Positions 1,102 to 18,393 of a stretch of DNA of 64,000 bases are shown piece after piece (position 1 is the first letter of the stretch; the number at the start of each line of letters is the position of its first letter). The stretch is from Burkholderiales bacterium (GTDB lineage: Bacteria; Pseudomonadota; Gammaproteobacteria; Burkholderiales; JACQAP01). The position numbers were made by a program, and so were the translations under genes. The DNA lies in the NCBI GenBank assembly GCA_036384015.1, contig DASVNF010000100.1:5952-69951 (forward strand), read 5' to 3'. Under the pieces are notes generated by a model that ran no database searches, was not told the DNA's origin, and was given only the letters and a program-made list of their open reading frames with translations.

Positions 1102-1119
1102 ATTGGACCAAGGTCCAAT
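1102..1119. promoter_or_regulatory. 18-bp palindrome ATTGGACCAAGGTCCAAT (candidate operator, copy 1)
   Basis: Perfect 7-bp inverted arms ATTGGAC/GTCCAAT with a 4-nt spacer. It lies in the intergenic region about 160 nt 5' of the OM barrel gene at 1282 and is followed by TCTCCGG. Confidence 0.55.
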
Positions 1120-1281
1120 TCTCCGGCGCCACCGGGCGGGTTTAAAGTAAGCCGCACCGGACACTTCACCGGCACCTACCAGGGCAGGCTCGCTGCTTCC
1201 GATTTCCTCCCCCATTCCATGATCGCAAGTTGCACGACGGCCTGGCAACGCCTGGCGCCGAATACCACAAGGAGATTCCAG

Positions 1282-1917
1282 ATGACAGAAACGCGGCGCA
1301 TCGGGATGGCGGTGGTCTGGATGCTCGCCAGCGTGGCGGCCTGTCCGGCCGTTCTCGCCCAGCAACCCGGGCAGACGACCCGATTCGAGATCACGCCTTT
1401 CGCCGGTTACCAGAGCAGCGAGGAATTTTCCGACGAAGTCTCGGGGACGGAGCTTAAACTTGAGAGCACTGGCAACGCCGGGATCATCTTCAGCATGAAT
1501 CTGGCACAGGACACCCAACTCGAGTTCCTGTACAGCACGGCGACATCGTCGCTTGCGCCTAAGAGCGGCGGCCCCGCCCTCACCGACGTCAAGGTTGAAT
1601 ATCTGCATGTGGGGGCGGTTTACGTCTACAGCGGCGGTCGCGTGCGGCCGTTCTTCGGTGCCACCGGCGGCGCCAGCCGCTTTGCCCCGGACGCACCGGG
1701 ACTGGACAGCGATACCAACTTCTCCCTGGGCCTCGTCGGCGGCGTCAAGCTGTTCCTGACAGAAAATATCGGGCTGCGCGTCGAGGCGCGCGCTTTCGCC
1801 ACGCAGGTGGACAGCGACAGCGCGGCGTTCTGCAACAATGGCACCTGCAGGATTTTCTACGAGGGAGACTTTATCTGGCAGTACATGGCCAACGCCGGCA
1901 TCGTGATCGCTTTCTAG
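1282..1917 (+). CDS. Outer-membrane beta-barrel protein (OmpW/OmpA-like small barrel)
   Basis: ORF 1219..1917 trimmed to ATG 1282, which is preceded by AAGGAG. Signal peptide MAVVWMLASVAACPAVLAQQ. Alternating hydrophobic beta-strand pattern and a C-terminal aromatic end (IVIAF). Confidence 0.7.
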   Translation: MTETRRIGMAVVWMLASVAACPAVLAQQPGQTTRFEITPFAGYQSSEEFSDEVSGTELKLESTGNAGIIFSMNLAQDTQLEFLYSTATSSLAPKSGGPALTDVKVEYLHVGAVYVYSGGRVRPFFGATGGASRFAPDAPGLDSDTNFSLGLVGGVKLFLTENIGLRVEARAFATQVDSDSAAFCNNGTCRIFYEGDFIWQYMANAGIVIAF

Positions 1918-1977
1918 TGCGGAAAAAGCGGGGGCAGCCGTCCCGACGGACAATTCAAGAACTCTCAGGAGAATGGC

Positions 1978-2541
1978 ATGAAATACCGGAATAAACTCGC
2001 AATCATCATGGTTTCAACAGCGGTGTTTGCACTACCCGCCGCCCATGCCCAGGAAAAGGCGGGCGGGGTCGCCGCCGCGACAGCGGAAACCGTGGTAACG
2101 GTGGTGGAAGTCGACCGCGAAGCGCGGGTCGTTACCGTAATGGGCCCCGAGGGCGGTCTGACGACGATCAACGTCCCCCCTGAAGCGCAAAATCTCGACC
2201 AGGTAGTGCCAGGATCGCGCTTCAAGGTCACGTATCTCGCTTCCGTCGCACTGGCGCTGCGCAAAGGCAGCGGCGCGGCGAGTTCCAGCCAGGGCAGGAC
2301 CGTCCGCCTTGCACCGAAAGGCGATACGCCTGGCGGCGCGGTGGTCAGCGTGCGCGAAGTCAATGCCGTGGTCGAGAAAATCGATCGAGACACCCGCGTT
2401 CTGACGGTGCGCGGTCCCGAAGGAGGCCCACGCGAACTGCAGGTCGACGAGTCGGTCAAGGCTTTCGACCAGGTCAACGTCGGCGACACGATTACGGTCC
2501 AGTTTACCGAAGGCCTGGCGATGCGCATGATCAAGGAGTAA
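1978..2541 (+). CDS. Secreted hypothetical protein with an internal tandem domain duplication
   Basis: GGAG RBS. Signal peptide ending AAHAQE. Two homologous about 55-aa segments: VVEVDREARVVTVMGPEGG... and VVEKIDRDTRVLTVRGPEGG... Confidence 0.6.
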   Translation: MKYRNKLAIIMVSTAVFALPAAHAQEKAGGVAAATAETVVTVVEVDREARVVTVMGPEGGLTTINVPPEAQNLDQVVPGSRFKVTYLASVALALRKGSGAASSSQGRTVRLAPKGDTPGGAVVSVREVNAVVEKIDRDTRVLTVRGPEGGPRELQVDESVKAFDQVNVGDTITVQFTEGLAMRMIKE

Positions 2542-2646
2542 CGCCTGGCGCGCTGACTGGGGGTACCACAGCGGGCATCGGGCGGCCGCTGAACGCGCCG
2601 CCCGGTCCACTGATTTCAGGACGCCGGCATGTCATGGCCCGGCCAT

Positions 2647-2664
2647 ATTGGACTATGGTCCAAT
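2647..2664. promoter_or_regulatory. 18-bp palindrome ATTGGACTATGGTCCAAT (candidate operator, copy 2)
   Basis: Same 7-4-7 palindrome as at 1102. It lies 34 nt upstream of the CheY-like gene start at 2698 and is followed by TTTCCGG. Confidence 0.55.
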
Positions 2665-2697
2665 TTTCCGGAGGGCGCCGGACTGGTGCAATGAGCC

Positions 2698-3087
2698 ATG
2701 GCCTCACTTCTGGTCGCCGTGGTTGACGACGAAGAACCTGTTCGCAAGGCTCTCGGCCGCCTGCTGCGTGCCTCCGGTCTGAACGTGCACGCTTTTCCCT
2801 CGGGGCAGGCCTTCATCGACTCGATTGCCTCGGCCCGCCCCGATTGCCTCATCCTCGACCTGCACATGCCCGGACTGAACGGCCTGCAGGTACTCGAGCA
2901 TCTCAAGGCCTGCCGCACGCTTTTCCCCACCATCGTCATCACCGGGCATGACGAACCTGAAAACCAGACGCGCTGCCTGTCCGGAGGCGCGATGGCCTAC
3001 ATGCGCAAGCCGCTGGATGACCGGTTGCTGCTGCATGCCATCGACGAGGCGGTGAAAAATTCCGGCAGCGGGCACCCCCCCGCCTGA
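2698..3087 (+). CDS. Single-domain response regulator (CheY-like receiver only)
   Basis: 129 aa with receiver signatures VAVVDDE, LILDLHMPGLNGLQV and RKP. There is no output domain. Confidence 0.8.
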   Translation: MASLLVAVVDDEEPVRKALGRLLRASGLNVHAFPSGQAFIDSIASARPDCLILDLHMPGLNGLQVLEHLKACRTLFPTIVITGHDEPENQTRCLSGGAMAYMRKPLDDRLLLHAIDEAVKNSGSGHPPA

Positions 3088-3164
3088 GTAGGAATGGGAT
3101 AAGGAGCGGATCTCGTTCTCCGCGGCACAACGACTAACAACAACCAGCGAAAGATAAATAAAAA

Positions 3165-4031
3165 ATGACAAACACCCTTCTCCTGCTTTCGGCGCTCGGC
3201 ATCCTCGCAATGGCGACCGGCGTCTCCGCCGAACAGCAAGGCGATACGCTTGCGGCGATCAGGAACACGCAGTCCATCAGGCTCGGCTATCTCGACCAGT
3301 CCGTGCCGTTCTCCTTCGTGGACCAGAAGGGAAACCCGCCGCAGGGCTACTCGATTGAACTCTGCCTCAGGGTTGTCGCCGGCATCGAACAGCAGCTCGG
3401 GTTGCAGAAACTCAAGGTGCAATGGGTTCCCCTCACCATGGCGAATCGTTTCGACATGGTGGCGGACGGCAGCGTCGACCTCGAATGCGGCATATCGACC
3501 ATCACCCTGTCGCGCCAGCAGAAGGTGGCTTTCAGCCTGATGACCTGGATAGACGGCGGCAGCTTCGTCGTAAAAGCAGGACGGCCGCACGGCGGCCTGG
3601 GCGATCTCGCCGGCAAGAAAATCGCGGTCATCGCCGGCACCACCACCGAAAGCGCCCTGCGCGATGCGCTGAAGAAGGACTTCATCAAGGCGGACCTCGT
3701 CCTGGTCAAGGAACATCTCGAGGGCCTGGGCGCCTTGGACCAGGGCAGGGCCGACGCCTACGCGGCCGACCAGACGGTGCTGATCGGGCTGGGCCTCGCC
3801 GTCAAGGAGCAGTTGTCCCTGGCCCTCGCCGACCGCAACTTTTCCTTCGAGCCCTACGGGCTGACCCTGAGGCGAAACGACGCTGACTTCAAGCTGGCGG
3901 TCAACCAGGAACTGGCGCGCATCTACCGGACCGGCCAGATCGGCGCGATCTATGACCGCTGGTTCGGCAAGCTGGGCAAACCGTCGTCGATGCTCGCGGC
4001 GATGTTCGCGATCAATGGATTGCCTGAATGA
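3165..4031 (+). CDS. Periplasmic solute-binding protein, family 3 (amino-acid type), orphan
   Basis: Signal peptide ending SAEQQ. Strings IRLGY, PFSF, GYSIELC and VDLECGISTITLSR, with a C-terminal INGLPE. There is no adjacent ABC permease or ATPase gene. Confidence 0.8.
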   Translation: MTNTLLLLSALGILAMATGVSAEQQGDTLAAIRNTQSIRLGYLDQSVPFSFVDQKGNPPQGYSIELCLRVVAGIEQQLGLQKLKVQWVPLTMANRFDMVADGSVDLECGISTITLSRQQKVAFSLMTWIDGGSFVVKAGRPHGGLGDLAGKKIAVIAGTTTESALRDALKKDFIKADLVLVKEHLEGLGALDQGRADAYAADQTVLIGLGLAVKEQLSLALADRNFSFEPYGLTLRRNDADFKLAVNQELARIYRTGQIGAIYDRWFGKLGKPSSMLAAMFAINGLPE

Positions 4032-4306
4032 AAAGCGGCTTACATCGATGCCCCGCACATTGGACTGCGGGACTCCGCACATGCGACAGATGTTGTGTTG
4101 CCAACCGCCGCGCTTAATTTCAGCACTGCTCTCGTCGTACTGGGCGTGGTCTTTCTCATGGCAGGAAGCAGGACAAGTGGACCTATTGGGGAGCAAATAG
4201 AGCGGGCACCCGGTACCCCCCGCGACATGCTGCTTGAAGCTGTCGTCCTGTATGTGGGCGAAGCCTTGCGCCAGGCAGGCCAGCCCCGTGCAATGCGCAC
4301 TGGTGA

Positions 4307-4642
4307 TTACCTGCGGCGTCCTCCACCTCCGGCTCGCGCAGCAGGACGCGGCGCCGGCATGGGCCGCGACGTGGGCGGCTTCGCTATCGGCTGCGCGGGT
4401 TTCACCGGCCGGTCGACGTCCGGCCGATTCGCCGGCGGCGGGCCCACGACGACAGGGGGGCTGCCGTAGTAGCAGCACGGCCCCCAGCCCCATGAGTCAT
4501 AGTAGCCACCTCCCATGTACATGGATCCGTGCACTGATCCGGAACCGTTCGAAGCGCAGCCCGACGCGAAGATGGCGCCGCACAGCATCAACGCGTACGA
4601 CGAGTGACGCACGGGGTTGGACTTGCGGAAGGATTTTTTCAT
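4307..4642 (-). CDS. Small Gly/Pro-rich lipoprotein, hypothetical
   Basis: Lipobox-like AIFASGC after a basic N-terminus. Low-complexity Gly/Tyr/Pro-rich body. Its ATG overlaps the stop of the upstream VOC gene (ATGA). Confidence 0.5.
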   Translation of the reverse strand: MKKSFRKSNPVRHSSYALMLCGAIFASGCASNGSGSVHGSMYMGGGYYDSWGWGPCCYYGSPPVVVGPPPANRPDVDRPVKPAQPIAKPPTSRPMPAPRPAARAGGGGRRR

Positions 4643-5532: not shown

Positions 5533-5705
5533 GCGCTTGTCCTCTGCGAAGCCCGCAGGATTCCGTACGACATCATACCTCCCCGAATCCGGTTCCATTT
5601 TCATGTGGGTGCTGCCCCGCAGCAGATCGGATACCCGAAATCCATGACGGTATTGTTATTCCAATTGCGTGAGCGCGATCAAGGATTTCGGCATAACCAC
5701 GCCGA

Positions 5706-5723
5706 ATTGGACTTTGGTCCAAT
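5706..5723. promoter_or_regulatory. 18-bp palindrome ATTGGACTTTGGTCCAAT (candidate operator, copy 3)
   Basis: Same palindrome. It sits in the divergent intergenic region between the VOC gene (start 5532, minus strand) and the porin/decarboxylase operon (start 5886, plus strand). Confidence 0.55.
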
Positions 5724-5885
5724 GGTGTTCGTCATGAGTGTGGCGCAAAGTGGTTTCAGTCGTCGAGGGGTGCTCCGGCAGTCAGCCAAGAGTAACAATA
5801 AAGAAGCGGCAAGTTCGGCCCATCGCTGAAGCCCTGCCATCACGGGAGTGCCCTGATCAGGTTATGACTTGACTGGGGGAAAATC

Positions 5886-7190
5886 ATGAAATCGCTCGCA
5901 CTTCTTCTGGCAGTGACGGCGTTCAGCAGTGGCGCGCTCGCGCAATCCAACGAGGAACTCAAGAAAACCGTCAAGGAGCTCGAGACCCGGGTCAAGACGC
6001 TCGAGCAGCAAAAAGCGGGCGCGCCTGCCACCTCCGAGTCGGGAGCGGCAGTCGTCGCGCCCGGTTCGACCGCCGAGGAAGGCTCACGCGATCCCAACAA
6101 GGCGCGCGTCGAGATCTTTGGCCAGATCATGCTCGACGCCATCTACGACTTCAAACGCGTCGACCCCGACTGGAACGCCACCCTGCGGCCCTCGAAGATC
6201 CCCGTGAACTGCCCTGGCGATGCCGGGTGCGGCAAAGATGGCGAGTCCATCTTCAGTATCCGGCAATCCAAGATTGGATTCAGAGGCTTCATTCCCACCA
6301 GCCTGGGCGAACTCACCACCCTGTTCGACATGGATCTGTTCAACAGCGGCGGGGGCAACACGGAGGCTCGCGTGCTCGATGCGTGGGCCGAGCTCGGCCA
6401 GTTTGGCGCCGGGCAGTACTACACCGTGTTCATGGACATCGACTCCTTTCCCAACACGATCGATTATTGGGGTCCCAACGGCATGGTATTCGTGCGCAAC
6501 CCGCAATTGCGCTATACCCCGTACAACCGCGATGGCATGAAGGTCGCGATCTCCCTGGAAGCGCCGGGTACCGCCATCGACACAGGCAAGATCTCGGAGG
6601 TGGATCCCGCCCTCGGCGCCGGAGTCTCGAGTCGTACGCGCCTTCCTGACCTGATCGCCAGCATCCGCGTGGATCGGGACTGGGGACATGCCCAGGCGGC
6701 GGGGATGATACGCCAGCTGGGGTATGACACGCCCGGCAATCCCGACGCCGAACCGTCCGGATCCGAAACCGGCTACGGCATCAACCTGAGCGGCTCGTTC
6801 AATACCATCGGCAAGAACCGCGTTACCGGCGCGATCGTCTTTGGCCGCGGCATCGCGAGCTACATGAATGACGGCGGTGTAGACCTTGCACCGGACGCCG
6901 GCCTGGCCGCCGAAGCCGTCGAGACCGTCGGCTGGTTCGCCTACTACGATCACTACTGGAACGAGAAATGGAGCAGCTCTGCCGGCGTCAGCGAACACAT
7001 CCAGTCCAACACCGACGGCCAGCTTCCAAACGCGTTCAAGAAAGGCAGCTATGGCTCCGCCAACCTGCTCTTCTATCCGGTAAAGAACGTCATGACCGGC
7101 GTCGAGCTGCTGTGGGGGCGCTACGAGCATAACGACGGCGCCGCCGGCAAGGACCAGCGCGTCCAGTTCTCGGCCAAGTTCACGTTCTAG
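5886..7190 (+). CDS. Outer-membrane porin with N-terminal coiled coil (DcaP-like)
   Basis: Signal peptide ending ALAQS. Coiled-coil segment NEELKKTVKELETRVKTLEQQK. Long beta-rich body ending in FSAKFTF (terminal Phe). Confidence 0.65.
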   Translation: MKSLALLLAVTAFSSGALAQSNEELKKTVKELETRVKTLEQQKAGAPATSESGAAVVAPGSTAEEGSRDPNKARVEIFGQIMLDAIYDFKRVDPDWNATLRPSKIPVNCPGDAGCGKDGESIFSIRQSKIGFRGFIPTSLGELTTLFDMDLFNSGGGNTEARVLDAWAELGQFGAGQYYTVFMDIDSFPNTIDYWGPNGMVFVRNPQLRYTPYNRDGMKVAISLEAPGTAIDTGKISEVDPALGAGVSSRTRLPDLIASIRVDRDWGHAQAAGMIRQLGYDTPGNPDAEPSGSETGYGINLSGSFNTIGKNRVTGAIVFGRGIASYMNDGGVDLAPDAGLAAEAVETVGWFAYYDHYWNEKWSSSAGVSEHIQSNTDGQLPNAFKKGSYGSANLLFYPVKNVMTGVELLWGRYEHNDGAAGKDQRVQFSAKFTF

Positions 7191-7210
7191 CCCCCCCGGA
7201 GCAACATGAC

Positions 7211-11811: not shown

Positions 11812-11814
11812 AGC

Positions 11815-14115
11815 ATGGCGCTTCCCGGTACAGGTCCGCTTCGTCCTCGCGTACTGATTGTCGATGACGCGCTTGCCCGGCCCGACACGGCAATCGGCCG
11901 CGCTGCCGAAGGCATTACGTCGGCCCTCGCGGCACGCAACTGCGACGTCGTCCGCGCACTGTCGTTCGAGGACGGGGCGGCAGTTGTTGGTTTCGATGCC
12001 TCGCTGCGCACCGTTCTTCTGAACTGGCACCTCGGCACCGAGGGAAAGACCGTGCCCGCCCAGGCGTCCTCCCTGCTGCACAAGCTGCGCGAACGGCACC
12101 CCAACGTGCCCGTATTCCTGACTGCGAATCGCAAGCTGGTCAGGGACAACATGAGCATCGAAGTCGCCGAGCTGGTGGACGAATTCGTCTGGCTGCTGGA
12201 GGACACTGCGGATTTTGTCGCCGGCCGCGTGATGGCAGCGATCAACCGCTACCAGGCAAAGCTCCTGCCACCTTATGCCCGTGCGCTCGCCACTTACTCG
12301 CAACTGCGCGAACACTCGTGGTCGGCACCGGGGCATCAGGGCGGCATTGCATTCACCAAGCTGCCCGCCGGGCGCGCGTTCTTCGACTTCATGGGCGAGA
12401 ACCTGTTTCGCACCGACATGGGCATCGAGCGCGGCGCGCTCGGCTCGCTGCTCGACCATACCGGACCCGTGGCGGAGAGCGAGAAGTACGCGGCGCGCGT
12501 CTTTGGAGCACACCGCAGCTATTCCGGTGTGGTCGGAACCTCGGGGTCGAACCGCAGCATCATGCAGGCCTGCATGAAAGCCGACGATCTGGTCGTGCTG
12601 GACCGCAACTGCCACAAGTCCATCGAGCAGGGCCTGATGCTGACCGGCGCGCGTCCCGTCTACATGGTGGCCTCGCGCAACCGTTACGGCATCATCGGGC
12701 CCATCGCACCGTCCGAGATGGATCCGAAGACCATCGTGGCCAAGGCGAAGGCAGGGCCGCTCACCAGGAAGTTTTCCGGCCGGAAGCCGGTATACGCTGT
12801 CGTCACGAACAGCACCTACGACGGCATGTGCTACAACTCCGCGCGCGTCGAAGCGCTGCTCGGGAAGTCCAGTGACAGGGTGCATATGGACGAAGCGTGG
12901 TACGGCTACGCGCGATTCAACCCGATGTACGAGAACCACTTCGCGATGCGCGGCGATCCGGCATCGCACAAGGGCCCGACGGTGTTCGCGACGCATTCGA
13001 CGCATAAGCTGCTCGCGGCGCTGTCGCAGGCGTCCTACATCCATGTGCGCGACGGCAAAGGGGCGATCGACCACCACCGCTTCAACCAGGCGTACATGAT
13101 GCACACCAGCACCTCGCCCCTCTACGCGATCGTCGCGTCGAACGACATCACGACCGCGATGATGGACGGTAGCGGAGGACAGTCCCTGACACAGGAAACG
13201 ATCAACGAAGCGGTCGACTTCCGGCAGGCGGTCGGCCGGGTGCGGCGCGAATTCTCGAAGAAGAAAGACTGGTTCTTCAAGCCGTGGAACGCCGAAACAG
13301 TGAAGCTCTCGAACGGGCGCAAGGTTGCATTCGAGGACGCCCCGGCCGAAAGCCTTTGCAACAGCCAGGAGCCGTGGGTGCTGCGTCCCGGCGACAAATG
13401 GCACGGCTTCGGGGATATTGCCGACGACTGGTGCATGCTCGACCCGATCAAGGTCAGCATCCTCTCGCCGGGGATGGGCGACGACGGCAAGCTGGAGAAG
13501 ACTGGCGTGCCGGCGGCCCTGGTGAACGCCTGGTTCAACCGCTTCGGCATCGTGCCGACGCGCGTAACCGATTTTCAGGTGATGTTTCTGTTCTCGATCG
13601 GCATCACGCGCGGCAAGTGGGGCACCCTGCTCACCAACTTGCTCGCATTCAAGCGCGATTACGACGCCAATCTTCCGGTGTCCCATTCGCTGCCGGAGAT
13701 CGCTGCGCAATACCCGCAGCGTTACGGCAAGATCGGCATGCGCGACCTGGGTAACGAGCTGTTCGAGTACCTGCGCGAGAACCGCCCCGGCGACGTGCTG
13801 AATGACGCCTACAAGACGCTCCCAGCGATGGACATGACGCCACGCGAAGCGTACGAGCGCCTGGTGTCCGGCGAAGTCGAACTGGTGCCGACCGACAAGC
13901 TCGCGCGGCGCACCGCAGCCAACGGCGTGATGCCCTACCCGCCCGGCATCCCTATGCTGATGTCCGGGGAGAACTTCGGTGGCAGGGATTCGCCCCAGAT
14001 CGAGTATCTGCGCAGCATGCAAAACCGGGAGAAACAGTTCCCCGGCTTCAGCGGAGTGATAGAAGGCGCGGAAATGATCGACGGGATCTTCCATGTCCTG
14101 TGCGTGAAAAAGTAG
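11815..14115 (+). CDS. adiA: Biodegradative arginine decarboxylase-like (AdiA clade of the Orn/Lys/Arg decarboxylase family)
   Basis: AAGGAG RBS. Near-colinear with E. coli AdiA as I recall it: LEDTADFVAGR, SWSAPGHQGG, GENLFRTDMGIERG, GTSGSNRSIMQAC, DRNCHKSIEQGLMLTGARPVYM, ATHSTHKLL, TDFQVMFLFSIGITRGKWGTL, PYPPGIPMLMSGENFG and C-terminal DGIFHVLCVKK. Confidence 0.8.
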   Translation: MALPGTGPLRPRVLIVDDALARPDTAIGRAAEGITSALAARNCDVVRALSFEDGAAVVGFDASLRTVLLNWHLGTEGKTVPAQASSLLHKLRERHPNVPVFLTANRKLVRDNMSIEVAELVDEFVWLLEDTADFVAGRVMAAINRYQAKLLPPYARALATYSQLREHSWSAPGHQGGIAFTKLPAGRAFFDFMGENLFRTDMGIERGALGSLLDHTGPVAESEKYAARVFGAHRSYSGVVGTSGSNRSIMQACMKADDLVVLDRNCHKSIEQGLMLTGARPVYMVASRNRYGIIGPIAPSEMDPKTIVAKAKAGPLTRKFSGRKPVYAVVTNSTYDGMCYNSARVEALLGKSSDRVHMDEAWYGYARFNPMYENHFAMRGDPASHKGPTVFATHSTHKLLAALSQASYIHVRDGKGAIDHHRFNQAYMMHTSTSPLYAIVASNDITTAMMDGSGGQSLTQETINEAVDFRQAVGRVRREFSKKKDWFFKPWNAETVKLSNGRKVAFEDAPAESLCNSQEPWVLRPGDKWHGFGDIADDWCMLDPIKVSILSPGMGDDGKLEKTGVPAALVNAWFNRFGIVPTRVTDFQVMFLFSIGITRGKWGTLLTNLLAFKRDYDANLPVSHSLPEIAAQYPQRYGKIGMRDLGNELFEYLRENRPGDVLNDAYKTLPAMDMTPREAYERLVSGEVELVPTDKLARRTAANGVMPYPPGIPMLMSGENFGGRDSPQIEYLRSMQNREKQFPGFSGVIEGAEMIDGIFHVLCVKK

Positions 14116-14160
14116 CACCCGAATGGCAGCGATCGAAACACCAAAAAAGGGGAGATGATC

Positions 14161-16413
14161 ATGGCAGCCAGCACCACGAAAAAAATGTCCTTGATGCAGC
14201 TGACGATCCTGGTCTCCGTCAACATGATGGGGTCCGGCATCATCATGCTGCCGACGAACATGGCCCAGGTCGGCGCGATCTCGCTGCTGTCCTGGATCGT
14301 GACTGCCGTCGGGTCGATGCTGATCGCGTACGGCTTCGCCCAGGCAGGCATTTTCAACAACCGGCCGGGCGGCATGTCGGCCTACGCCGAGGATGCCTAC
14401 GGCAAGCCCGGCTACTTCATGGTGTTCCTGCTCTATTTCTTCTCCCTCGCCATCGGCAACGTCGCGATCGCGATTTCCGCGGTGGGCTATCTTTCCGGCT
14501 TTTTTCCAGGCCTTTCGGCGACGCCGATCGCGACCTGCCTCAGCGTGATCGGCCTGATCTGGCTCACGTCCGTCGCCAATTTCGGCGGCCCTTCGATCAC
14601 CGGCAGGATCGGCTCCGTCACGGTGTGGGGCGTCATCATCCCGGTTGCCGGCCTGTCCATCATCGGCTGGTTCTGGTTCAAGAGCGACACCTTCATGCAG
14701 GCGTGGAATCCGCAGGGAATGAGCATCGGCGAAGGCATGGGCTCGAGCATTGCGCTGACGCTATGGGCCTTCCTGGGCATGGAGTCCGCGGCACAGAACT
14801 CCGATGCCGTGGAAGATCCCAAGCGCAACGTTCCACTCGCGTGCATGTTCGGCACGCTGGGCGCAGCGGTCATCTATATCCTCTCGACAACCGTGATCCA
14901 GGGCATTGTTCCCAACGCCGAGCTGGCAGAATCGACGGGCCCGTTCGCGCTTGCGTACGCCCACATGTTCAATCCGACCGTCGGCTCGATCATCATGGCA
15001 CTGGCGATCCTGGCCTGCCTCGGTTCGCTCCTCGGCTGGCAGTTCACCATCTCGCAAACCGCGAAGGCCGCCGCCGACGATCGCATGTTTCCTAGGTTTT
15101 TCTCGAAGCTCAACAAGCTGGGTGCCCCGGTGATGGGATTGATCATCATGGGCGTTGTCCAGTCGGTGATGGCGCTATCCACCATCTCGCCCAGCCTGAG
15201 CGAGCAGTTCAGCGCGCTGGTCAATCTTGCCGTGGTCACCAACGTGGTGCCCTACATCATTGCGCTCTCCGCGCTGGTCGTAATGATGAAAAAGGCGGGC
15301 GTCACCAGCGGGGTTTACAAGCGCAACGTCATCATAGGAGTGGGCGCCATGCTCTATTCTACGTACGCGATCTACGCCTCGGGCAAAGATGCCGTCCTTG
15401 GCGGGATGATCATCGTGGCACTCACCTACATCCTCTGGGGATTCCTCGCCCCACGCTTTGCGTCGGTCAAACCAGCGGCCGCTCCCGCTTCCGCCGGCGG
15501 TGTCGCCGCCTCCGGCATTGCGCTCGCTGCGCTGCTGGCGCTCGTGCTGCTGCTTGCCGGAACGCAACCCGCCGAGGCTGCCGGTACGATGGACCGCATC
15601 AAGAGTTCGGGCAAGCTGAAACTGGGCTATAGCGCCGACACCCGCCCCTTTACCTTTGACGGAGGATCCGGTCCGGCCGGCTTCGCGATCGACCTGTGCA
15701 TGGCGATCGCCGGCGAAGCGAAGGCGGCCCCTGGCATGGGGGCGCTAGCGGTGGAATTCGTCCCACTGGCGCATGACGAAGGGCCGCAGGCCGTGGCGCA
15801 AGGCAAGGTCGACATCTCGTGCGAGCCGACCGTGCCGACGAGGACCTCGCGCAAGCAGGTCTCGTACTCGATCCCGGTTTTCGCAAGCGGGGTCGGCGTT
15901 GTTGTCAGCAAGGACGCCTCCTCACGACTCAAGAACATTCTCTCCGGCCAAACGCCGCCAACAAGCCCCACCTGGCGCGCCAATGCGGACAAGCTTATTC
16001 GGGAAAGCACGTTTTCAGTGATTGAAGGCACGCAAAGCCAGCGCGTATTCGAGCAGCGGATGAGTCAGTTGAAGCTCATTCCCAAGGTCTCGACCGTCAA
16101 GGATTTCGACGCCGGCATTCAAGACGTCATCGACGGGCGTGCCAATGCCTTCTTCGGCAACCGCGCAATCCTTCTGGACGCGGTCAAGCGCAAAGGCGGG
16201 TCGGCTCACCTGGAGGTGCTCGACCGGCTGTTCACGAATGAAACCTATGCTTTTGCGGTTCCACGCGGTGACGAGGATTTCCGGCTCCTGGTGGACGGAG
16301 CCTTGAGCCGGCTGTTCCTGTCCAATGAACTTGGAGACGTCTACGGGAAGTGGTTCGGACTGCTCAACGAGAATGCGCGTTCCCTGTTCCAGCTGAATGC
16401 GCTCCCGGACTGA
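14161..16413 (+). CDS. potE: PotE-like basic amino acid/polyamine antiporter (APC family) fused to a C-terminal family-3 periplasmic solute-binding domain
   Basis: The N-terminal about 435 aa are colinear with E. coli PotE as I recall it: QLTIL..VNMMGSGIIMLPT, SWIVTAVGSM, GNVAIAISAVGY, ANFGG..ITG, VTVWGVIIPV, GWFWF, LTLWAFLG.ES, NVP, LGWQFTI and LVNLAVVTNV.PYI. A hydrophobic segment VAASGIALAALLALVLLLAG plus AEA follows. The SBP domain then has KLKLGY, FAIDLC and a C-terminal LNALPD. Start is ATG 14161 (GGGGAG RBS), with ATG 14155 as an alternative. Confidence 0.8.
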   Translation: MAASTTKKMSLMQLTILVSVNMMGSGIIMLPTNMAQVGAISLLSWIVTAVGSMLIAYGFAQAGIFNNRPGGMSAYAEDAYGKPGYFMVFLLYFFSLAIGNVAIAISAVGYLSGFFPGLSATPIATCLSVIGLIWLTSVANFGGPSITGRIGSVTVWGVIIPVAGLSIIGWFWFKSDTFMQAWNPQGMSIGEGMGSSIALTLWAFLGMESAAQNSDAVEDPKRNVPLACMFGTLGAAVIYILSTTVIQGIVPNAELAESTGPFALAYAHMFNPTVGSIIMALAILACLGSLLGWQFTISQTAKAAADDRMFPRFFSKLNKLGAPVMGLIIMGVVQSVMALSTISPSLSEQFSALVNLAVVTNVVPYIIALSALVVMMKKAGVTSGVYKRNVIIGVGAMLYSTYAIYASGKDAVLGGMIIVALTYILWGFLAPRFASVKPAAAPASAGGVAASGIALAALLALVLLLAGTQPAEAAGTMDRIKSSGKLKLGYSADTRPFTFDGGSGPAGFAIDLCMAIAGEAKAAPGMGALAVEFVPLAHDEGPQAVAQGKVDISCEPTVPTRTSRKQVSYSIPVFASGVGVVVSKDASSRLKNILSGQTPPTSPTWRANADKLIRESTFSVIEGTQSQRVFEQRMSQLKLIPKVSTVKDFDAGIQDVIDGRANAFFGNRAILLDAVKRKGGSAHLEVLDRLFTNETYAFAVPRGDEDFRLLVDGALSRLFLSNELGDVYGKWFGLLNENARSLFQLNALPD

Positions 16414-16450
16414 ATGACAGGCACTGCGTTTGCGGTCAGCTGCGGTTGAA

Positions 16451-17761
16451 ATGACAGCTACGCCAAACGCGGCCAAGAGCCTGGGGCTCGCCGCCTGTAC
16501 CGCGGTAGTGGTGGGGAACATGGTGGGTTCGGGCTTCTACCTGTCGCCCACCGCCACGGCACCCTACGGCCTGCTCGCGATCTTCGCCTGGAGCGTGATG
16601 GGCGCTGGTGCAATCTGCCTCGGCCTTACCTTCGCGCGCCTGGCGCGCATCGCGCCGGCGACCGGCGGACCGTTCGCCTACACGCGCATGGCGTACGGTG
16701 ACTTCGCCGGCTTCCTTGTCGCCTGGGGTTACTGGATCTCCATCTGGGCGTCGCTGCCGGCAATCGCGTTCGCCTTCGCCGGCGCACTCATAAACCTTTT
16801 TCCCGCCCTGCAGAACAGAACCATGGCACTGGCGCTGACGCTCGCCCCAATCTGGGCCGTGGTGCTGATAAACCTGCGCGGCGTGAAGACGGCCGGCATC
16901 TTCGCCGAGGTCACGACCTACTCCAAGCTCGTTCCCTTCGCCGCGGTCGCGCTGGTCGGCTTGTTTTACGTGCGCAGCGAGAACCTGCCGGCCTTCAATC
17001 CCACAGGAGAGTCGCTGCTCGCCTCCAGTGCGGCGCTCGCGCCGCTCGTGATGTTCGCCTACCTTGGCCTGGAGTCGGCAACCGTTCCGGCGGGCGATGT
17101 ACGCGACGCGACGCGCACCATCCCCCGTTCGACCATCATCGGTATCAGCATTGCCGCCGTGCTCTACGTGCTCGGCACCATAGTGGTTTTCGGCGTCGTG
17201 CCGCCCGACCAACTGCTGAAGTCGGTGGCCCCGTTCACCGACGCCGCGCGGATCATGTGGGGCGACTGGGGCGCCGGCGCGATCGCCGCCGCCGTGATTG
17301 TCTCTTCTATCGGCGCATTGAACGGCTGGACGCTCATGATGGGGCAAGTCCCCATGGCGGCCGCGCAGGAGGGCCTGTTCCCTCCCGCCTTCGGCCGGCT
17401 GTCAGCAAGCGGCGTCCCAGCGCTCGGCATCGTAATCTCGGCCATGCTTACCACCGCGATGGTGTTGGTCCAGACCTGGGGCGCACCGGGGGTGCGCGCG
17501 TTCTACAATCTGGTGGTCAGCCTGAGCACGATGGCGGCGGTGATCCCCTATGCGTTCTGCGCGCTGGCGGTAGGCTTGGTCGCCGCGCGCAACGGCGGAA
17601 AGGCGCGTATCGGTCCGGTCGAAATCATCGCATTCGTGTTCGCGATGTTCACCGTCTACGGCTGCGGCGCGGAAGCCGTCCTGTATGGCCTGCTGCTGCT
17701 CTTGCTTGGAATTCCGGTGTACGTGTGGCAGCGCCAGGGCACGCCTCCGGCGACTGGCTAG
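16451..17761 (+). CDS. APC-superfamily amino acid/polyamine transporter (second transporter of the operon)
   Basis: About 12 predicted hydrophobic segments. APC signature GNMVGSGFYLSP and GGPFAYTRMAYGDFAGFLVAWGYW. The ORF track starts at TTG 16430, and ATG 16451 was chosen. Confidence 0.75.
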   Translation: MTATPNAAKSLGLAACTAVVVGNMVGSGFYLSPTATAPYGLLAIFAWSVMGAGAICLGLTFARLARIAPATGGPFAYTRMAYGDFAGFLVAWGYWISIWASLPAIAFAFAGALINLFPALQNRTMALALTLAPIWAVVLINLRGVKTAGIFAEVTTYSKLVPFAAVALVGLFYVRSENLPAFNPTGESLLASSAALAPLVMFAYLGLESATVPAGDVRDATRTIPRSTIIGISIAAVLYVLGTIVVFGVVPPDQLLKSVAPFTDAARIMWGDWGAGAIAAAVIVSSIGALNGWTLMMGQVPMAAAQEGLFPPAFGRLSASGVPALGIVISAMLTTAMVLVQTWGAPGVRAFYNLVVSLSTMAAVIPYAFCALAVGLVAARNGGKARIGPVEIIAFVFAMFTVYGCGAEAVLYGLLLLLLGIPVYVWQRQGTPPATG

Positions 17762-17993
17762 GCGCGCGCGAGCAACAGCCTCCTTGCGTTCCTTCGCAAA
17801 CTGTCGACATCGAGCATGCCGGTATGCCGGCGCCGCGGGCATTTCAATATGTCCATGGACTGAAGCAATCCCTGGAAAAAGTGCCCCGGCAAGTCCTGGA
17901 CCCGGCATCTTCCGGAGTTGACCACTTCTGGATCATTGCTCCCCGCCCCGCTCTCCCGATAGCATTGCATTCTTGCATCAGAAGGAAATCTTG

Positions 17994-18338
17994 ATGAGGT
18001 ATGTCCCTTCCATCGTTGGCGCCTGGCTCCTGATTGCGGCATCAGGGGCATTCGAGATTGTCTTTTCTGTCCTCCTCAAGGAGTCCGACGGCTTCACCAG
18101 GCCGATCCCCACTGCGATCGGCATAACCGCCGCGCTCCTGAGCATCTGGCTGATGACGATCGCCCTGCGAACTCTTCCGCTCGGGCCGTCGTACGCGGTC
18201 TGGGCCGGAATCGGGACGCTGGGAACGGCCATTGCGGCAGTCGTCATCTACTCGGAATCGGTGACCGTCCCAAAGACGGTATTCATGCTTTTCATCATCA
18301 TCGGTATCGTCGGCCTGCAGCTGCACGGCCGGGACTAG
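17994..18338 (+). CDS. gdx: SMR-family small multidrug/guanidinium exporter (SugE/Gdx-like)
   Basis: 114 aa with 4 hydrophobic helices. Conserved membrane Glu in AFEIVFSVLLK, and PLGPSYAVWAGIGTLGTA resembles SugE PVGTAYAVWTGIGAVGAA. ATG 17994 has an AAGGA RBS. Confidence 0.75.
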   Translation: MRYVPSIVGAWLLIAASGAFEIVFSVLLKESDGFTRPIPTAIGITAALLSIWLMTIALRTLPLGPSYAVWAGIGTLGTAIAAVVIYSESVTVPKTVFMLFIIIGIVGLQLHGRD

Positions 18339-18375
18339 GCCGGGAGCGTCAACACGCGGGGGGAGCCGGTTTTTC

Positions 18376-18393
18376 ATTGGACCAAAGGCCAAT
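18376..18393. promoter_or_regulatory. 18-bp near-palindrome ATTGGACCAAAGGCCAAT (candidate operator, copy 4, one arm mismatch)
   Basis: Same motif with GGCCAAT in place of GTCCAAT. It lies 72 nt upstream of the OM barrel gene start at 18465 and is flanked by CCGGTTTTTC. Confidence 0.5.

What the first reader, a model, noticed from the sequence alone, without database searches (positions are those of the whole stretch)
1102..18393. Four copies of an 18-bp palindrome ATTGGAC-N4-GTCCAAT, all in promoter-proximal intergenic DNA
Exact reading gives ATTGGACCAAGGTCCAAT (1102-1119), ATTGGACTATGGTCCAAT (2647-2664), ATTGGACTTTGGTCCAAT (5706-5723) and ATTGGACCAAAGGCCAAT (18376-18393, one mismatch). All four are intergenic. 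They lie 5' of an OM barrel gene, 34 nt 5' of the stand-alone CheY gene, in the divergent region between the VOC gene and the porin/triple-decarboxylase operon, and 72 nt 5' of another OM barrel gene. In a common orientation the right arm is followed within a few nt by a (C)CGG-containing string: TCTCCGG, TTTCCGG, TCGGCG, GAAAAACCGG. Isolated half-sites ATTGGAC occur at 4059-4065 and 24154-24160. A 7-4-7 palindrome repeated at four promoters within 18 kb suggests the operator of one dimeric regulator. That regulator would link envelope genes to the decarboxylase operon. The FixJ/NarL-type regulator at 403..1038 is the nearest candidate, but this assignment is pure inference.
Basis: partly seen in the sequence, partly recalled or inferred. 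Interest (0 to 1): 0.6.

Follow-up and report, generated by a model that had tools for sequence, protein, structure and literature searches.

The report
Response-regulator operator at four promoters
The four 18-bp palindromes are real and are very probably the DNA sites where the neighbouring two-component response regulator switches on four promoters (two outer-membrane proteins, a small feedback receiver protein, and a porin plus amino-acid-decarboxylase operon). The same regulator and site pair recurs in several bacterial phyla but seems not to have been described.

Summary
ATTGGAC-N4-GTCCAAT occurs at 1102, 2647 and 5706 (exact) and at 18376 (one mismatch), against 0.14 expected. All four copies are intergenic. 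A matrix trained only on sites from other genomes recovers exactly these four sites in the 64 kb.

The FixJ/StyR-like regulator at 403-1038 is the binder by comparative evidence:
- Its orthologues (63-80% identity) and distant homologues from four phyla-level lineages carry the same palindrome. It often lies just after the regulator gene and 35-40 nt before a stand-alone receiver (CheY-like) gene.
- Sites occur only beside regulators whose recognition helix reads EKT[IV]KxHR (11/15 loci against 0/65, p = 1e-10).
- A -10-like TAnnnT hexamer starts exactly 24 nt after the 16-bp core in 19 of 32 sites. This puts the dyad centre at about -43.5, the position used by class II activators and by DosR.
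- The core GGAC-N4-GTCC equals the DosR box core, and both base-reading lysines of DosR are conserved.

The isolated half-sites and the "CCGG string" are not meaningful. I rate this a new member of a known kind (NarL/FixJ-type operator). No binding, start-site or expression experiment exists, and the signal sensed is unknown.

The parts
2..406 (+). 3' end of the sensor histidine kinase gene (HATPase_c), cut by the window edge. It overlaps the regulator start by 4 nt (TTGA).
   Evidence: Pfam HATPase_c 2.9e-25. It is 67-78% identical to the C-termini of MASE1-PAS-HisKA-HATPase kinases of about 690 aa that precede the orthologous regulators in L082-L085.
403..1038 (+). Response regulator of 211 aa: receiver domain (phospho-acceptor D55) plus GerE/LuxR-type HTH. 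The recognition helix is EKTVKVH (K172, K175). This is the proposed binder of the palindrome.
   Evidence: Pfam Response_reg + GerE. Closest solved structures are StyR 1yio (1.6e-48) and FixJ 5xso (1.2e-45). It scores below the NCBIfam FixJ cut-off (213 < 255 bits). K172 and K175 align without gaps to DosR K179 and K182.
1102..1119 (+). Site 1, ATTGGACCAAGGTCCAAT: operator of the OMP1 promoter.
   Evidence: 34.5 bits. Conserved at the same position in L082, L083, L084 and L085.
1143..1148 (+). Predicted -10 hexamer TAAAGT of the OMP1 promoter (offset 25 after the 16-bp core). Predicted transcription start near 1155.
   Evidence: Fixed-offset analysis. TTAAAGTA is conserved in the orthologous promoters. 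Inferred, not mapped.
1282..1917 (+). Outer-membrane beta-barrel protein gene (OMP1).
   Evidence: Pfam OMP_b-brl. Start taken from the gene call in L001 and the Shine-Dalgarno sequence. Orthologues follow the regulator in L082-L085.
1978..2541 (+). Hypothetical 187-aa gene with no family match, probably co-transcribed with OMP1.
   Evidence: 64% identical homologue at the same position in L085. No Pfam or NCBIfam family above threshold.
2647..2664 (+). Site 2, ATTGGACTATGGTCCAAT: operator of the stand-alone receiver (CheY-like) promoter.
   Evidence: 33.3 bits. A site 35-40 nt before a receiver gene of about 126 aa is conserved in L003, L004, L023, L025, L032, L034 and L082-L087.
2684..2692 (+). 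Predicted extended -10 element TGgTGCAAT of the receiver promoter. The predicted start is at or within about 2 nt of the ATG at 2698, giving a leaderless or nearly leaderless mRNA.
   Evidence: TGnTGCAAT or TGnTGGAAT is conserved in L082, L083, L085 and L087. Inferred, not mapped.
2698..3087 (+). Single-domain receiver protein of 129 aa with a complete phospho-acceptor set (D10, D11, D54, T82, K104). It is the most widely conserved target and the proposed negative-feedback element.
   Evidence: Pfam Response_reg 3.1e-26. Sequence. About 37-43% identical to the receiver domains of the regulator orthologues.
3165..4031 (+). Periplasmic solute-binding protein (SBP_bac_3), possibly co-transcribed with the receiver gene.
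   Evidence: Pfam SBP_bac_3 2.1e-24. Operon membership is inferred from the 77-nt gap only.
5706..5723 (+). Site 3, ATTGGACTTTGGTCCAAT: operator of the porin and decarboxylase operon promoter.
   Evidence: 30.2 bits. Equivalent sites lie upstream of porin homologues in L087 (exact), L105 (1 mismatch), L091 (GGGAC variant) and L088 (degenerate). L089 has none.
5746..5751 (+). Predicted -10 hexamer CAAAGT (offset 24, plus strand). Predicted start near 5758. There is no comparable hexamer on the minus strand toward the VOC gene.
   Evidence: Inferred.
5886..18338 (+). Putative operon: DcaP-like porin (5886-7190); three biodegradative-type Orn/Lys/Arg decarboxylases (7211-9469 Lys/Arg-like; about 9502-11811 ornithine type; 11815-14115 AdiA-type arginine decarboxylase); a PotE-like antiporter fused to an SBP_bac_3 domain (14155-16413); a second basic amino acid/polyamine antiporter (16430-17761); an SMR transporter (17973-18338).
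   Evidence: Pfam and NCBIfam. Gaps between genes are at most 40 nt, except 211 nt before the SMR gene. Operon structure is inferred.
18376..18393 (+). Site 4, ATTGGACCAAAGGCCAAT (one mismatch in the right arm): operator of the OMP2 promoter.
   Evidence: 24.5 bits, within the 21.8-34.7 range of the training sites.
18416..18421 (+). Predicted -10 hexamer GAAAGT (offset 24). Predicted start near 18428.
   Evidence: Inferred.
18465..19148 (+). Second outer-membrane beta-barrel protein gene (OMP2).
   Evidence: Pfam OMP_b-brl 7.7e-14. Shine-Dalgarno GGAGG precedes the ATG.

Best explanation
The 18-20 bp palindrome (extended consensus TATTGGACC-WW-GGTCCAATA) is the DNA-binding site of the FixJ/StyR-like response regulator encoded at 403-1038.

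**Proposed mechanism**
1. The upstream membrane kinase phosphorylates the regulator at D55. In orthologues this kinase is a MASE1-PAS histidine kinase. In the window only its last 135 codons are present.
2. The regulator dimerises. Each GerE-type helix-turn-helix reads one TTGGAC half-site, probably through K172 and K175. These are the equivalents of the DosR lysines that read GGGAC.
3. The dyad is centred about 43.5 bp upstream of the transcription start, directly abutting a degenerate -35 region. Bound there, the dimer recruits sigma-70 RNA polymerase as a class II-type activator.
4. Four promoters in this window are driven this way: OMP1 (plus a 187-aa protein); a stand-alone receiver protein (plus perhaps a solute-binding protein); the operon of porin, three decarboxylases, two antiporters and SMR; and OMP2.
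5. The induced stand-alone receiver most likely feeds back negatively on the pathway, either as a phosphate sink or as a kinase inhibitor.

**Status of each step**
- Shown in silico: existence of the sites, their non-randomness, their conservation, their co-occurrence with the regulator subfamily, and the fixed promoter geometry.
- Inferred: binding, activation rather than repression, start sites, the feedback role, and the signal. The acid-resistance-type decarboxylase/antiporter genes and the envelope proteins hint at an acid or envelope stimulus, but nothing tests that.
For: - **Non-randomness.** Four sites against 0.14 expected, all intergenic. A matrix trained on other genomes recovers exactly these four.
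- **Orthologous promoters.** In L082-L085 (regulator 63-80% identical) the order is kinase, regulator, [site], OMP, [site], CheY. The palindrome and the -10 are conserved and the flanks are not.
- **Distant homologues.** The 16-mer occurs 20-130 bp after the regulator stop codon in L002, L003, L004, L023, L025, L032, L034 and L035. It lies upstream of the kinase-regulator operon in L024, and there are extra copies in L002-L005 and L011.
- **Protein-DNA covariation.** 11 of 15 loci whose regulator has [EVLR][KR]T[IV]KxHR carry a site of at least 15 bits. None of 65 loci with other recognition helices does (maximum 10.7 bits). Fisher p = 1.3e-10. In the betaproteobacterial clade with KFHRGNLM the outer base changes on both arms (CTGGAC...GTCCAG).
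- **Promoter geometry.** TAnnnT starts exactly 24 nt after the core in 19 of 32 sites (3 more at 25), against 3 in the opposite orientation and about 0 at other offsets. Many of the receiver-gene (CheY) promoters, in the window clade and in most of the betaproteobacterial loci, also carry a TGn extended -10. This places the centre near -43.5, the same as the DosR box at hspX (PMC13486717) and close to StyR STY2 at about -40 (PMC2442086).
- **Similarity to the DosR box.** The core GGAC-N4-GTCC is identical to that of TTSGGGACTWWAGTCCCSAA (PMC2275270). DosR reads it with K179, K182 and N183 (PMC13486717). The regulator here has EKTVKVH against DosR EKTVKNY in a gapless alignment.
- **Decarboxylase link.** L087 has [site], CheY, [site], porin, decarboxylase.
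Against: - There is no experiment of any kind: no binding, no start-site map, no expression data.
- Two or three of the four window -10 candidates are weak. CAAAGT and GAAAGT lack the T at position 1, and TGCAAT lacks the A at position 2.
- The porin-promoter site is absent in one homologue (L089) and degenerate in another (L088).
- Two signature loci on short contigs (L008, L012) and two loci with ERTVKLHR (L031, L054) show no site.
- Many comparison loci are related to each other (five betaproteobacterial MAGs; L083 and L084), so counts overstate independence.
- The palindrome can also fold as a 7-bp RNA hairpin (z -2.2 to -2.6 for three sites).
- The whole genome was not available, so genome-wide intergenic enrichment could not be tested.
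Confidence: 0.82

Rival explanations
1. The palindrome is bound by the same regulator, but the regulator represses. Alternatively, binding is independent of phosphorylation and the sites mark repressed promoters.
For: NarL/FixJ-type regulators can repress. Unphosphorylated FixJ was reported to bind and repress nif promoters in R. palustris (PMC13327599). Nothing here measures expression.
Against: The dyad sits upstream of the -10, replaces a proper -35, and keeps a fixed phase with the -10. No sigma-70 promoter with a good -35 is detected at any site. This is the anatomy of activator-dependent promoters such as DosR at hspX and StyR at STY2. A repressor site would be expected to overlap a strong core promoter or the start site.
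Confidence: 0.08
2. The palindrome acts at the RNA level. It would be a hairpin that terminates, attenuates or stabilises transcripts, for example read-through from the regulator gene. It would not be a protein-binding DNA site.
For: Each exact copy folds into a 7-bp stem with a 4-nt loop (z -2.2 to -2.6). Several copies lie just 3' of the regulator gene and are followed by a short T-rich run. Some lineage-specific changes are symmetric (CTGGAC...GTCCAG, TGGGAC...GTCCCA), which also preserves pairing.
Against: - The terminator scan does not flag any of the sites, and the stem has only 3 G-C pairs and no proper U tract.
- The sequence, not just the pairing, is conserved from Thermodesulfobacteriota to Burkholderiales.
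- Many copies are degenerate in one arm only, which breaks the stem: window site 4, L011 (three sites), L085 (two sites), L003 11469. Site 4 folds no better than shuffles (z -0.8).
- Copies also occur upstream of the kinase operon (L024) and in divergent intergenic regions (L002 1519, L003 1649). By the promoter geometry they lie upstream of the predicted start sites, so they would not be transcribed from those promoters.
Confidence: 0.04
3. The palindrome is the site of a different regulator encoded elsewhere in the genome, and its proximity to the gene at 403-1038 is coincidental.
For: Genomes of this kind encode many LuxR/GerE-type proteins. The window covers only 64 kb, and binding was not tested.
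Against: The only genes that consistently accompany the motif across more than 12 lineages in four phyla-level lineages are the kinase-regulator pair and the DNA-binding-less receiver. Presence of the motif tracks the recognition-helix sequence of this regulator subfamily (p = 1.3e-10).
Confidence: 0.04
4. The copies are a dispersed mobile or REP-like repeat, or chance palindromes, without regulatory function.
For: They are short, identical-looking palindromes in intergenic DNA, which is the typical appearance of REP elements.
Against: Similarity between copies ends at about 20 bp plus the -10 element (alignment A1). There are only four copies in 64 kb, each at a fixed distance from a -10-like hexamer and a gene start. 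Chance expectation is 0.14. The sites are conserved at orthologous positions in other genomes.
Confidence: 0.02

Closest known systems
DosR/DevR (Mycobacterium tuberculosis) and its Dev box TTSGGGACTWWAGTCCCSAA
   Same: - Both are NarL/FixJ-class regulators with a GerE-type HTH that bind as dimers to a 20-bp palindrome.
- The core GGAC-N4-GTCC and a W-rich centre are identical (PMC2275270).
- Both base-reading lysines are conserved: DosR K179 and K182 correspond to K172 and K175 here (PMC13486717).
- The box is centred at -43.5 and abuts a poor -35 (PMC13486717).
   Different: - This is not an orthologue. The DosR DNA-binding domain matches only at E = 4e-3 and the full-length protein at 3.6e-9, against 1e-45 to 1e-48 for FixJ and StyR.
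- DosR N183 is V176 here.
- The outer half-site base is T (TTGGAC) instead of G (GGGAC) in this clade.
- Boxes here are single, whereas DosR promoters need at least two tandem boxes (PMC3177182).
- The kinase is a membrane MASE1-PAS protein, not a GAF-haem DosS/DosT.
- The regulon has a different content.
StyR/TodT (Pseudomonas) and the STY2/tod boxes
   Same: StyR is the closest solved structure (1yio, 1.6e-48, aligned over residues 2-200). The phosphorylated dimer activates from a high-affinity palindrome about 40 bp upstream of the start (PMC2442086). The box architecture of half-site, N4, half-site ending in ...AC/GT... is similar. The StyR box sequence ATAAAC-N4-GTTTAT is from my memory and was not verified here.
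   Different: The StyR recognition helix is AEVTVKVHR, with V where this family has K172, and the half-site sequence differs. StyS and TodS are cytoplasmic double-sensor kinases for aromatics. The targets are catabolic operons with IHF and upstream sites.
FixJ (FixLJ oxygen-sensing system of rhizobia and Caulobacter)
   Same: FixJ is the best NCBIfam model (213 bits) and gives the second-best PDB hit, B. japonicum FixJ (5xso), at 1.2e-45, plus S. meliloti FixJ for the DNA-binding domain at 1e-13. Caulobacter FixLJ also induces a single-domain receiver (FixT) that feeds back on the kinase. That point is from my own knowledge and was not checked here.
   Different: - The score is below the FixJ equivalog cut-off (213 < 255).
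- The recognition helix differs (EKTVKVHR against S-P-R-T-V/I-E-V-H/Y-R).
- FixJ sites are GTAGTTTCCC, GTAMGTAG or TAAGTAATTTCCCTTA (PMC4999443), not this palindrome.
- No fixK or nifA target is present.
- Loci with FixJ-type helices carry no site.
LuxR/TraR-type activators at the lux box (class II-like, centre about -42.5)
   Same: A GerE-type HTH dimer on a roughly 20-bp dyad overlaps the -35 region and activates sigma-70 RNA polymerase. The position is from my own knowledge and was not verified here.
   Different: Those proteins are ligand-binding (acyl-homoserine lactone) rather than phosphorylation-controlled, and their box sequence is unrelated.
EvgS/EvgA and other regulators of inducible amino-acid decarboxylase acid-resistance systems (E. 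coli)
   Same: A NarL-class regulator controls acid-resistance genes. The operon here encodes AdiA-type and SpeF-type decarboxylases and PotE/AdiC-type antiporters.
   Different: EvgA matches only weakly (NCBIfam 65 bits against a cut-off of 251). Its 18-bp box is different (from memory). Whether the system here responds to acid is unknown.

Membership tests
Operator of a NarL/FixJ-class (GerE HTH) two-component response regulator | A regulator with a receiver domain plus a GerE/LuxR-type HTH is encoded with a histidine kinase. | tested here: met
   Pfam Response_reg 8.5e-27 and GerE 6.1e-19. The kinase C-terminus lies directly upstream and overlaps by 4 nt.
Operator of a NarL/FixJ-class (GerE HTH) two-component response regulator | The site is an inverted repeat of two 6-7 bp half-sites suited to a symmetric dimer, and it is over-represented in promoter regions. 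| tested here: met
   7-4-7 dyad. Four copies against 0.14 expected, all intergenic. The matrix scan recovers only these four.
Operator of a NarL/FixJ-class (GerE HTH) two-component response regulator | The site co-occurs and co-varies with the regulator across genomes. | tested here: met
   Sites lie next to orthologues and homologues in four phyla-level lineages. 11/15 against 0/65 by recognition-helix signature, p = 1.3e-10.
Operator of a NarL/FixJ-class (GerE HTH) two-component response regulator | The site holds a fixed position relative to the core promoter, compatible with activation (about -40 to -45). | tested here: met
   TAnnnT starts at offset 24 in 19/32 sites and at offset 25 in 3/32, in the gene-ward orientation only. 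This is in silico only, with no mapped start sites.
Operator of a NarL/FixJ-class (GerE HTH) two-component response regulator | Direct, phosphorylation-dependent binding and regulation of the adjacent genes. | not testable with these tools
   Requires EMSA, footprinting or DAP-seq, plus mutant transcriptomics.
FixJ proper (FixLJ) | The protein scores above the curated FixJ equivalog threshold. | tested here: not met
   NF006900 FixJ gives 213 bits against a cut-off of 255.
FixJ proper (FixLJ) | It binds FixJ-type sites and targets fixK or nifA. | tested here: not met
   Published FixJ sites (PMC4999443) differ from this palindrome. No fixK or nifA gene is present at the sites. Loci with a FixJ-type recognition helix have no palindrome.
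FixJ proper (FixLJ) | The cognate kinase is a haem-PAS FixL. | tested here: inconclusive
   Orthologous kinases are MASE1-PAS-HisKA-HATPase membrane proteins. Haem-binding residues were not examined, and the window lacks the sensor part.
DosR/DevR regulon (Dev box) | The regulator is an orthologue of DosR. | tested here: not met
   DevR 3c3w matches at 3.6e-9 and the DosR DNA-binding domain at 4e-3, far behind StyR and FixJ.
DosR/DevR regulon (Dev box) | The box has a GGGACT half-site read by K179, K182 and N183. | tested here: inconclusive
   The GGAC core and both lysines are shared. G4 is T in this clade (though GGGAC variants occur in L003, L011 and L085), and N183 is V (PMC13486717).
DosR/DevR regulon (Dev box) | At least two tandem boxes per promoter bind cooperatively. 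| tested here: not met
   Each promoter in the window has a single box, and no second site scores above 9.1 bits anywhere. The requirement comes from PMC3177182.
Intrinsic terminator / REP-type repeat | A GC-rich stem followed by a U tract, or a repeat unit that extends beyond the palindrome and is present in many copies. | tested here: not met
   The terminator scan does not flag the sites. Conservation ends at about 20 bp. There are four copies in 64 kb.

The most novel reading that the evidence does not exclude
The window exposes one member of a widespread, so far unnamed signalling module found in Burkholderiales and other Proteobacteria, Desulfobacterota/Thermodesulfobacteriota and Acidobacteriota. 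The module has these parts:
- a membrane (MASE1 or 7TM)-PAS kinase;
- a FixJ-like regulator with an EKT[IV]KxHR recognition helix;
- a DosR-like 20-bp box at -43.5;
- a regulator-induced, leaderless stand-alone receiver gene that closes a feedback loop.

Its variable regulon is built from envelope proteins (OM barrels, porins, OmpA/Omp85-like and periplasmic proteins), sulfatases and, in this lineage, a triple decarboxylase/antiporter acid-resistance operon. If this is right, the box would allow regulon prediction for thousands of uncharacterised regulators. It would also show that GGAC-N4-GTCC read-out by the two lysines is ancestral to, or convergent between, the FixJ-like and DosR clades.
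Probability: 0.5. Interest if true: 0.5.

Novelty: new member of a known kind. Interest (0 to 1): 0.42.

Why it matters
It gives a concrete, testable regulon for an uncharacterised two-component system in an uncultured Burkholderiales bacterium: one regulator, four promoters, and predicted start sites and contact residues. It places an unusual operon with three amino-acid decarboxylases and two antiporters under the same control as outer-membrane proteins.

Because the regulator and box pair is conserved across phyla, the 20-bp consensus could be used to predict targets of thousands of FixJ-family regulators that are currently annotated only as "response regulator". All 120 best database homologues share the recognition helix.

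The principle itself is textbook: a NarL/FixJ-type dimer on a dyad near -43. A specialist would find this useful rather than surprising.

Tried and rejected
- **Isolated half-sites (4059, 24154 and others).** Chance level. Rejected as meaningful.
- **"(C)CGG string" after the right arm.** Not conserved in other genomes. It is replaced in my account by a T-rich degenerate -35 region and a fixed -10.
- **Looser pattern TTGGNC-N4-GNCCAA.** Adds only one chance-level hit at 58372.
- **MerR-type, LysR-type and FNR/CRP-type operators.** Considered from memory and rejected on geometry. There is no 19-bp-spacer promoter around the dyad, the even-centred 7-4-7 arrangement does not fit T-N11-A, and TTG...CAA spacing is 10 rather than 8.
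- **Site 3 serving the VOC gene.** No -10-like hexamer at the fixed offset on the minus strand. Not excluded, but not supported.
- **Autoregulation of the kinase-regulator operon in this clade.** No site lies upstream of the kinase gene in L082-L085. It does occur in L024.
- **Getting the window's own kinase sensor domain.** The exact-match look-up returned only a 1.5-kb contig, so the domain architecture is inferred from orthologues.
- **Literature searches.** I searched for the motif strings, FixJ boxes, MASE1 with FixJ, DAP-chip response-regulator motifs, and the Burkholderia lxa motif (which is FNR-like). None described this box. The library does not hold most subscription-journal papers, so this absence is not proof.
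- **Species-representative genome collection.** It held no orthologue above 57% identity. Orthologues were found only via the protein database and contig look-ups.

Full report
**1. Observation**

- 1102-1119, ATTGGACCAAGGTCCAAT
- 2647-2664, ATTGGACTATGGTCCAAT
- 5706-5723, ATTGGACTTTGGTCCAAT
- 18376-18393, ATTGGACCAAAGGCCAAT (one mismatch)

The expectation is 0.14, and none of 100 shuffles reached four. The window is 62-64% G+C throughout, so an A/T-containing 14-base dyad is not favoured by composition.

The gene map runs as follows:

| Coordinates | Strand | Gene |
|---|---|---|
| 2-406 | + | Histidine-kinase C-terminus |
| 403-1038 | + | Response regulator (receiver + GerE HTH) |
| 1282-1917 | + | OM beta-barrel protein (OMP1) |
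| 1978-2541 | + | 187-aa hypothetical protein |
| 2698-3087 | + | Stand-alone receiver |
| 3165-4031 | + | SBP_bac_3 protein |
| 4639-5604 | - | VOC/glyoxalase gene |
| 5886-7190 | + | DcaP-like porin |
| 7211-14115 | + | Three Orn/Lys/Arg decarboxylases |
| 14155-16413 | + | PotE-like antiporter fused to an SBP domain |
| 16430-17761 | + | Second antiporter |
| 17973-18338 | + | SMR protein |
| 18465-19148 | + | Second OM barrel (OMP2) |

All four palindromes lie in the roughly 10% of this stretch that is non-coding.

Two details do not hold. The isolated half-sites are at chance level. The "CCGG string" is not a conserved feature.

**2. The same site follows the regulator into other genomes**

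The regulator's best structural relatives are StyR (1yio, 1.6e-48) and FixJ (5xso, 1.2e-45). A scan of species-representative genomes found no orthologue above 57% identity.

When I searched those 80 loci for the palindrome, the closest homologues carried it:
- Delta proteobacterium NaphS2 (L002, two exact copies).
- A Thermodesulfobacteriota MAG (L003, three copies).
- Five betaproteobacterial MAGs (L004, L023, L025, L032, L034; the variant is CTGGACCAAGGTCCAG).
- A Steroidobacteraceae MAG (L035).
- A Thiobacillus MAG (L011, four copies).
- A Thermoanaerobaculia MAG (L005, TAGGACCAAGGTCCTA).
- An alphaproteobacterial MAG (L024).

In eight of these loci a copy lies 20-130 bp after the regulator's stop codon, as in the window.

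The protein database then gave true orthologues. The window's own protein is named "MAG TPA: Burkholderiales bacterium", and orthologues have 63-80% identity. Their contigs show a conserved gene order:
1. MASE1-PAS-HisKA-HATPase kinase
2. Regulator
3. OMP_b-brl
4. (189-aa protein)
5. Stand-alone receiver

Exact or near-exact palindromes sit before the OMP gene and before the receiver gene. In alignment A1 only the ~20-bp dyad and a -10-like element are conserved, and the flanks are not. This is a phylogenetic footprint. It also rules out a longer mobile repeat.

**3. The site tracks the regulator's recognition helix**

I aligned the 80 homologues and looked at the recognition helix.
- Every locus with an exact TGGAC-N4-GTCCA has a regulator reading (E/V)KT(I/V)K(V/F/Y/A)HR. 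L024 has ERTIKAHR.
- None of the other helix classes has a site. These classes are SE(I/V)TVKVHR (StyR/NodW-like), S(E/Q/P)RTVEIHR (FixJ-like) and SIKTVEAHR (Comamonadaceae).

I then used a matrix trained only on loci that were fetched independently. With it, 11 of 15 signature loci reach at least 15 bits, against 0 of 65 others (maximum 10.7). Fisher p = 1.3e-10 and Mann-Whitney p = 4e-7.

All 120 best database homologues carry [VAGT]EKT[VI]KVHR, apart from two with GEHTIKVHR and three the pattern did not capture.

In the betaproteobacterial clade the helix becomes KFHRGNLM, and the outermost half-site base changes on both arms (TTGGAC to CTGGAC). This is as expected for co-evolution of a symmetric dimer and its site.

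The only other gene that always travels with the motif is the stand-alone receiver, which has no DNA-binding domain. The regulator is therefore the only plausible binder.

**4. Promoter anatomy**

I oriented 32 sites toward their downstream genes and looked for a TAnnnT hexamer.
- It starts exactly 24 nt after the 16-bp core in 19 sites, and at 25 nt in 3 more.
- Other offsets give 0-2 (4 immediately after the core, in both orientations, where the dyad's own flanking bases lie), and the opposite orientation gives 3.

In the window the corresponding hexamers are:
- TAAAGT, 1143-1148
- TGCAAT, 2687-2692, preceded by TGg, an extended -10 that is also present in L082, L083, L085 and L087
- CAAAGT, 5746-5751
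- GAAAGT, 18416-18421

With the -10 at -12 to -7, the dyad centre falls at about -43.5 and the right arm ends at -36. It abuts a degenerate, T-rich "-35" (TTCTCC, TTTTCC and similar). No canonical -35/-10 promoter and no terminator is detected at any site.

This is the anatomy of activator-dependent class II promoters. It matches the DosR box "centered around -43.5" with a suboptimal -35 at hspX (PMC13486717) and StyR's STY2 site at about -40 (PMC2442086).

For site 3 only the plus-strand orientation has such a hexamer. It therefore probably drives the porin operon, not the VOC gene.

The receiver gene's ATG lies 35-40 nt after the core in the window clade and in the betaproteobacterial clade. 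This predicts a leaderless or nearly leaderless mRNA.

**5. How the half-site is probably read**

The extended consensus is TATTGGACC-WW-GGTCCAATA. It shares the core GGAC-N4-GTCC and the W-rich centre with the DosR box TTSGGGACTWWAGTCCCSAA (PMC2275270).

DosR reads GGGACT through K179, K182 and N183 of helix alpha-9 (PMC13486717; PMC3177182). A gapless BLASTP alignment puts the regulator's E171-K172-T-V-K175-V176-H on DosR's E178-K179-T-V-K182-N183-Y. Both lysines are conserved and the asparagine is not.

StyR has valine at the first lysine position and binds a different half-site. The StyR box sequence is recalled from memory and was not verified.

The resemblance to DosR concerns mechanism, not orthology. 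The DNA-binding domain matches FixJ and StyR at about 1e-13 and DosR at only 4e-3.

**6. Regulon content and likely logic**

In the window the four promoters serve:
- OMP1, plus the 187-aa protein;
- the receiver, perhaps with the SBP gene;
- the porin, decarboxylase, antiporter and SMR operon;
- OMP2.

NCBIfam types the third decarboxylase as AdiA (1200 bits against a cut-off of 1167), the second as ornithine decarboxylase, and the first antiporter as PotE-like. These are the components of classical inducible acid-resistance modules.

The link between the box and this operon is conserved in several loci:
- L087 (porin 83%, first decarboxylase 90% identical) reads [site], receiver, [site], porin, decarboxylase.
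- L105 has a one-mismatch site about 80 nt before its porin.
- L091 has a GGGAC variant with TGGAAT at offset 24.
- L088 has only a degenerate copy.
- L089 has none.

In other lineages the targets are:
- OmpA-VWA, Omp85-like and Phenol_MetA_deg-type outer-membrane proteins;
- DUF2092, CusF-like and Ysc84-like periplasmic proteins, and a DUF11 surface protein;
- sulfatases and FGE;
- an aldehyde:ferredoxin oxidoreductase;
- the kinase operon itself (L024).

The constant element is the stand-alone receiver. It has a full phospho-acceptor set (D10, D11, D54, T82, K104) and is closest to the regulator's own receiver domain. My inference is a negative-feedback device, either a phosphate sink or a kinase inhibitor, analogous to FixT in the Caulobacter FixLJ system (from my own knowledge). 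The stimulus is unknown. An acid or envelope cue is only suggested by the gene content.

**7. Rivals**

- **RNA hairpin or terminator role.** This is conceivable, because there is a 7-bp stem with z about -2.2 to -2.6. Several points argue against it. One-arm degeneracy breaks the stem (site 4 has z -0.8, and there are several such sites in L011 and L085). There is no U tract. The sequence itself is conserved across phyla. And the sites lie upstream of the predicted start sites.
- **Repression rather than activation.** This cannot be excluded without expression data, but it fits the geometry poorly.
- **A different, distant regulator, or a REP-like repeat.** The co-occurrence statistics and alignment A1 contradict both.

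**8. Comparison with what is known, and novelty**

The system works like DosR, StyR or LuxR-type class II activation. It is not FixJ proper: it scores 213 bits against a cut-off of 255, the published FixJ sites are different (PMC4999443), and there is no fixK. It is not DosR either.

Searches of the held literature for the motif and for related systems found no description. That library lacks most subscription-journal papers, so this is not proof of absence.

I therefore classify it as a new member of a known kind: a newly defined operator and regulon for an uncharacterised FixJ-like subfamily.

**Verdict**

| Item | Verdict |
|---|---|
| Observation | Confirmed |
| Confidence in the regulator-operator assignment | About 0.8 |
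| Interest | Moderate (0.42) |

Noticed in passing
window 2684-2700; also L004 11449-11505, L023 10686-10742, L082 11823-11878, L087 151-206: The stand-alone receiver gene starts 35-40 nt after the palindrome core, only 5-9 nt after the predicted (extended) -10, and has no Shine-Dalgarno sequence. This predicts a leaderless or nearly leaderless mRNA, conserved in at least two clades.
   Followed up: partly
window 14155-16413: A 752-aa protein fuses a PotE-like putrescine/ornithine antiporter (residues about 6-437, 676 bits against a cut-off of 409) to a C-terminal periplasmic SBP_bac_3 domain (residues about 488-735). This is an unusual transporter and binding-protein fusion.
   Followed up: no
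window 7211-14115: Three paralogous biodegradative-type Orn/Lys/Arg decarboxylases lie in tandem: Lys/Arg-like (below all equivalog cut-offs), ornithine type, and AdiA equivalog. They are preceded by a DcaP-like porin and followed by two antiporters and an SMR pump. Together they look like a compact multi-substrate acid-resistance or polyamine-producing operon.
   Followed up: partly
L082 13123-15442; L083 8639-15778; L085 13708-16833; L086 12000-18325; L005 9131-11578; L011 12178-13884: In many relatives the kinase, regulator and receiver module sits next to clusters of sulfatases and formylglycine-generating enzyme. In L005 and L011 a palindrome lies directly upstream of a sulfatase gene. 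The window itself has no sulfatase near the sites.
   Followed up: partly
L082 7953-9998; L083 3062-5140; L085 6915-8987 (orthologues of the kinase cut at window 2-406): The cognate kinase has an N-terminal MASE1 membrane sensor domain followed by PAS. More distant homologues use other sensors: GAF-PAS in NaphS2, an ABC_sub_bind periplasmic domain in L024, and 7TM in L011. The output module (regulator and box) is therefore conserved while the input varies.
   Followed up: partly
L004 10642-10690, 11444-11492, 18988-19036; L023, L032, L034 equivalents: In the betaproteobacterial MAGs the palindrome is embedded in a longer conserved unit, GATAC-CTGGACCAAGGTCCAG-TTGGATCGG...TGATACCGTG. The GATAC(C) element therefore occurs on both sides, about 42 bp apart. 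The second copy coincides with the extended -10. Whether the first has a function is unknown.
   Followed up: no
window 4032-4638: There is a 600-nt stretch between the SBP gene and the VOC gene with no confident gene. The ORF at 4095-4469 has only a faint DUF3185 hit (E = 0.007). It was not examined further.
   Followed up: no
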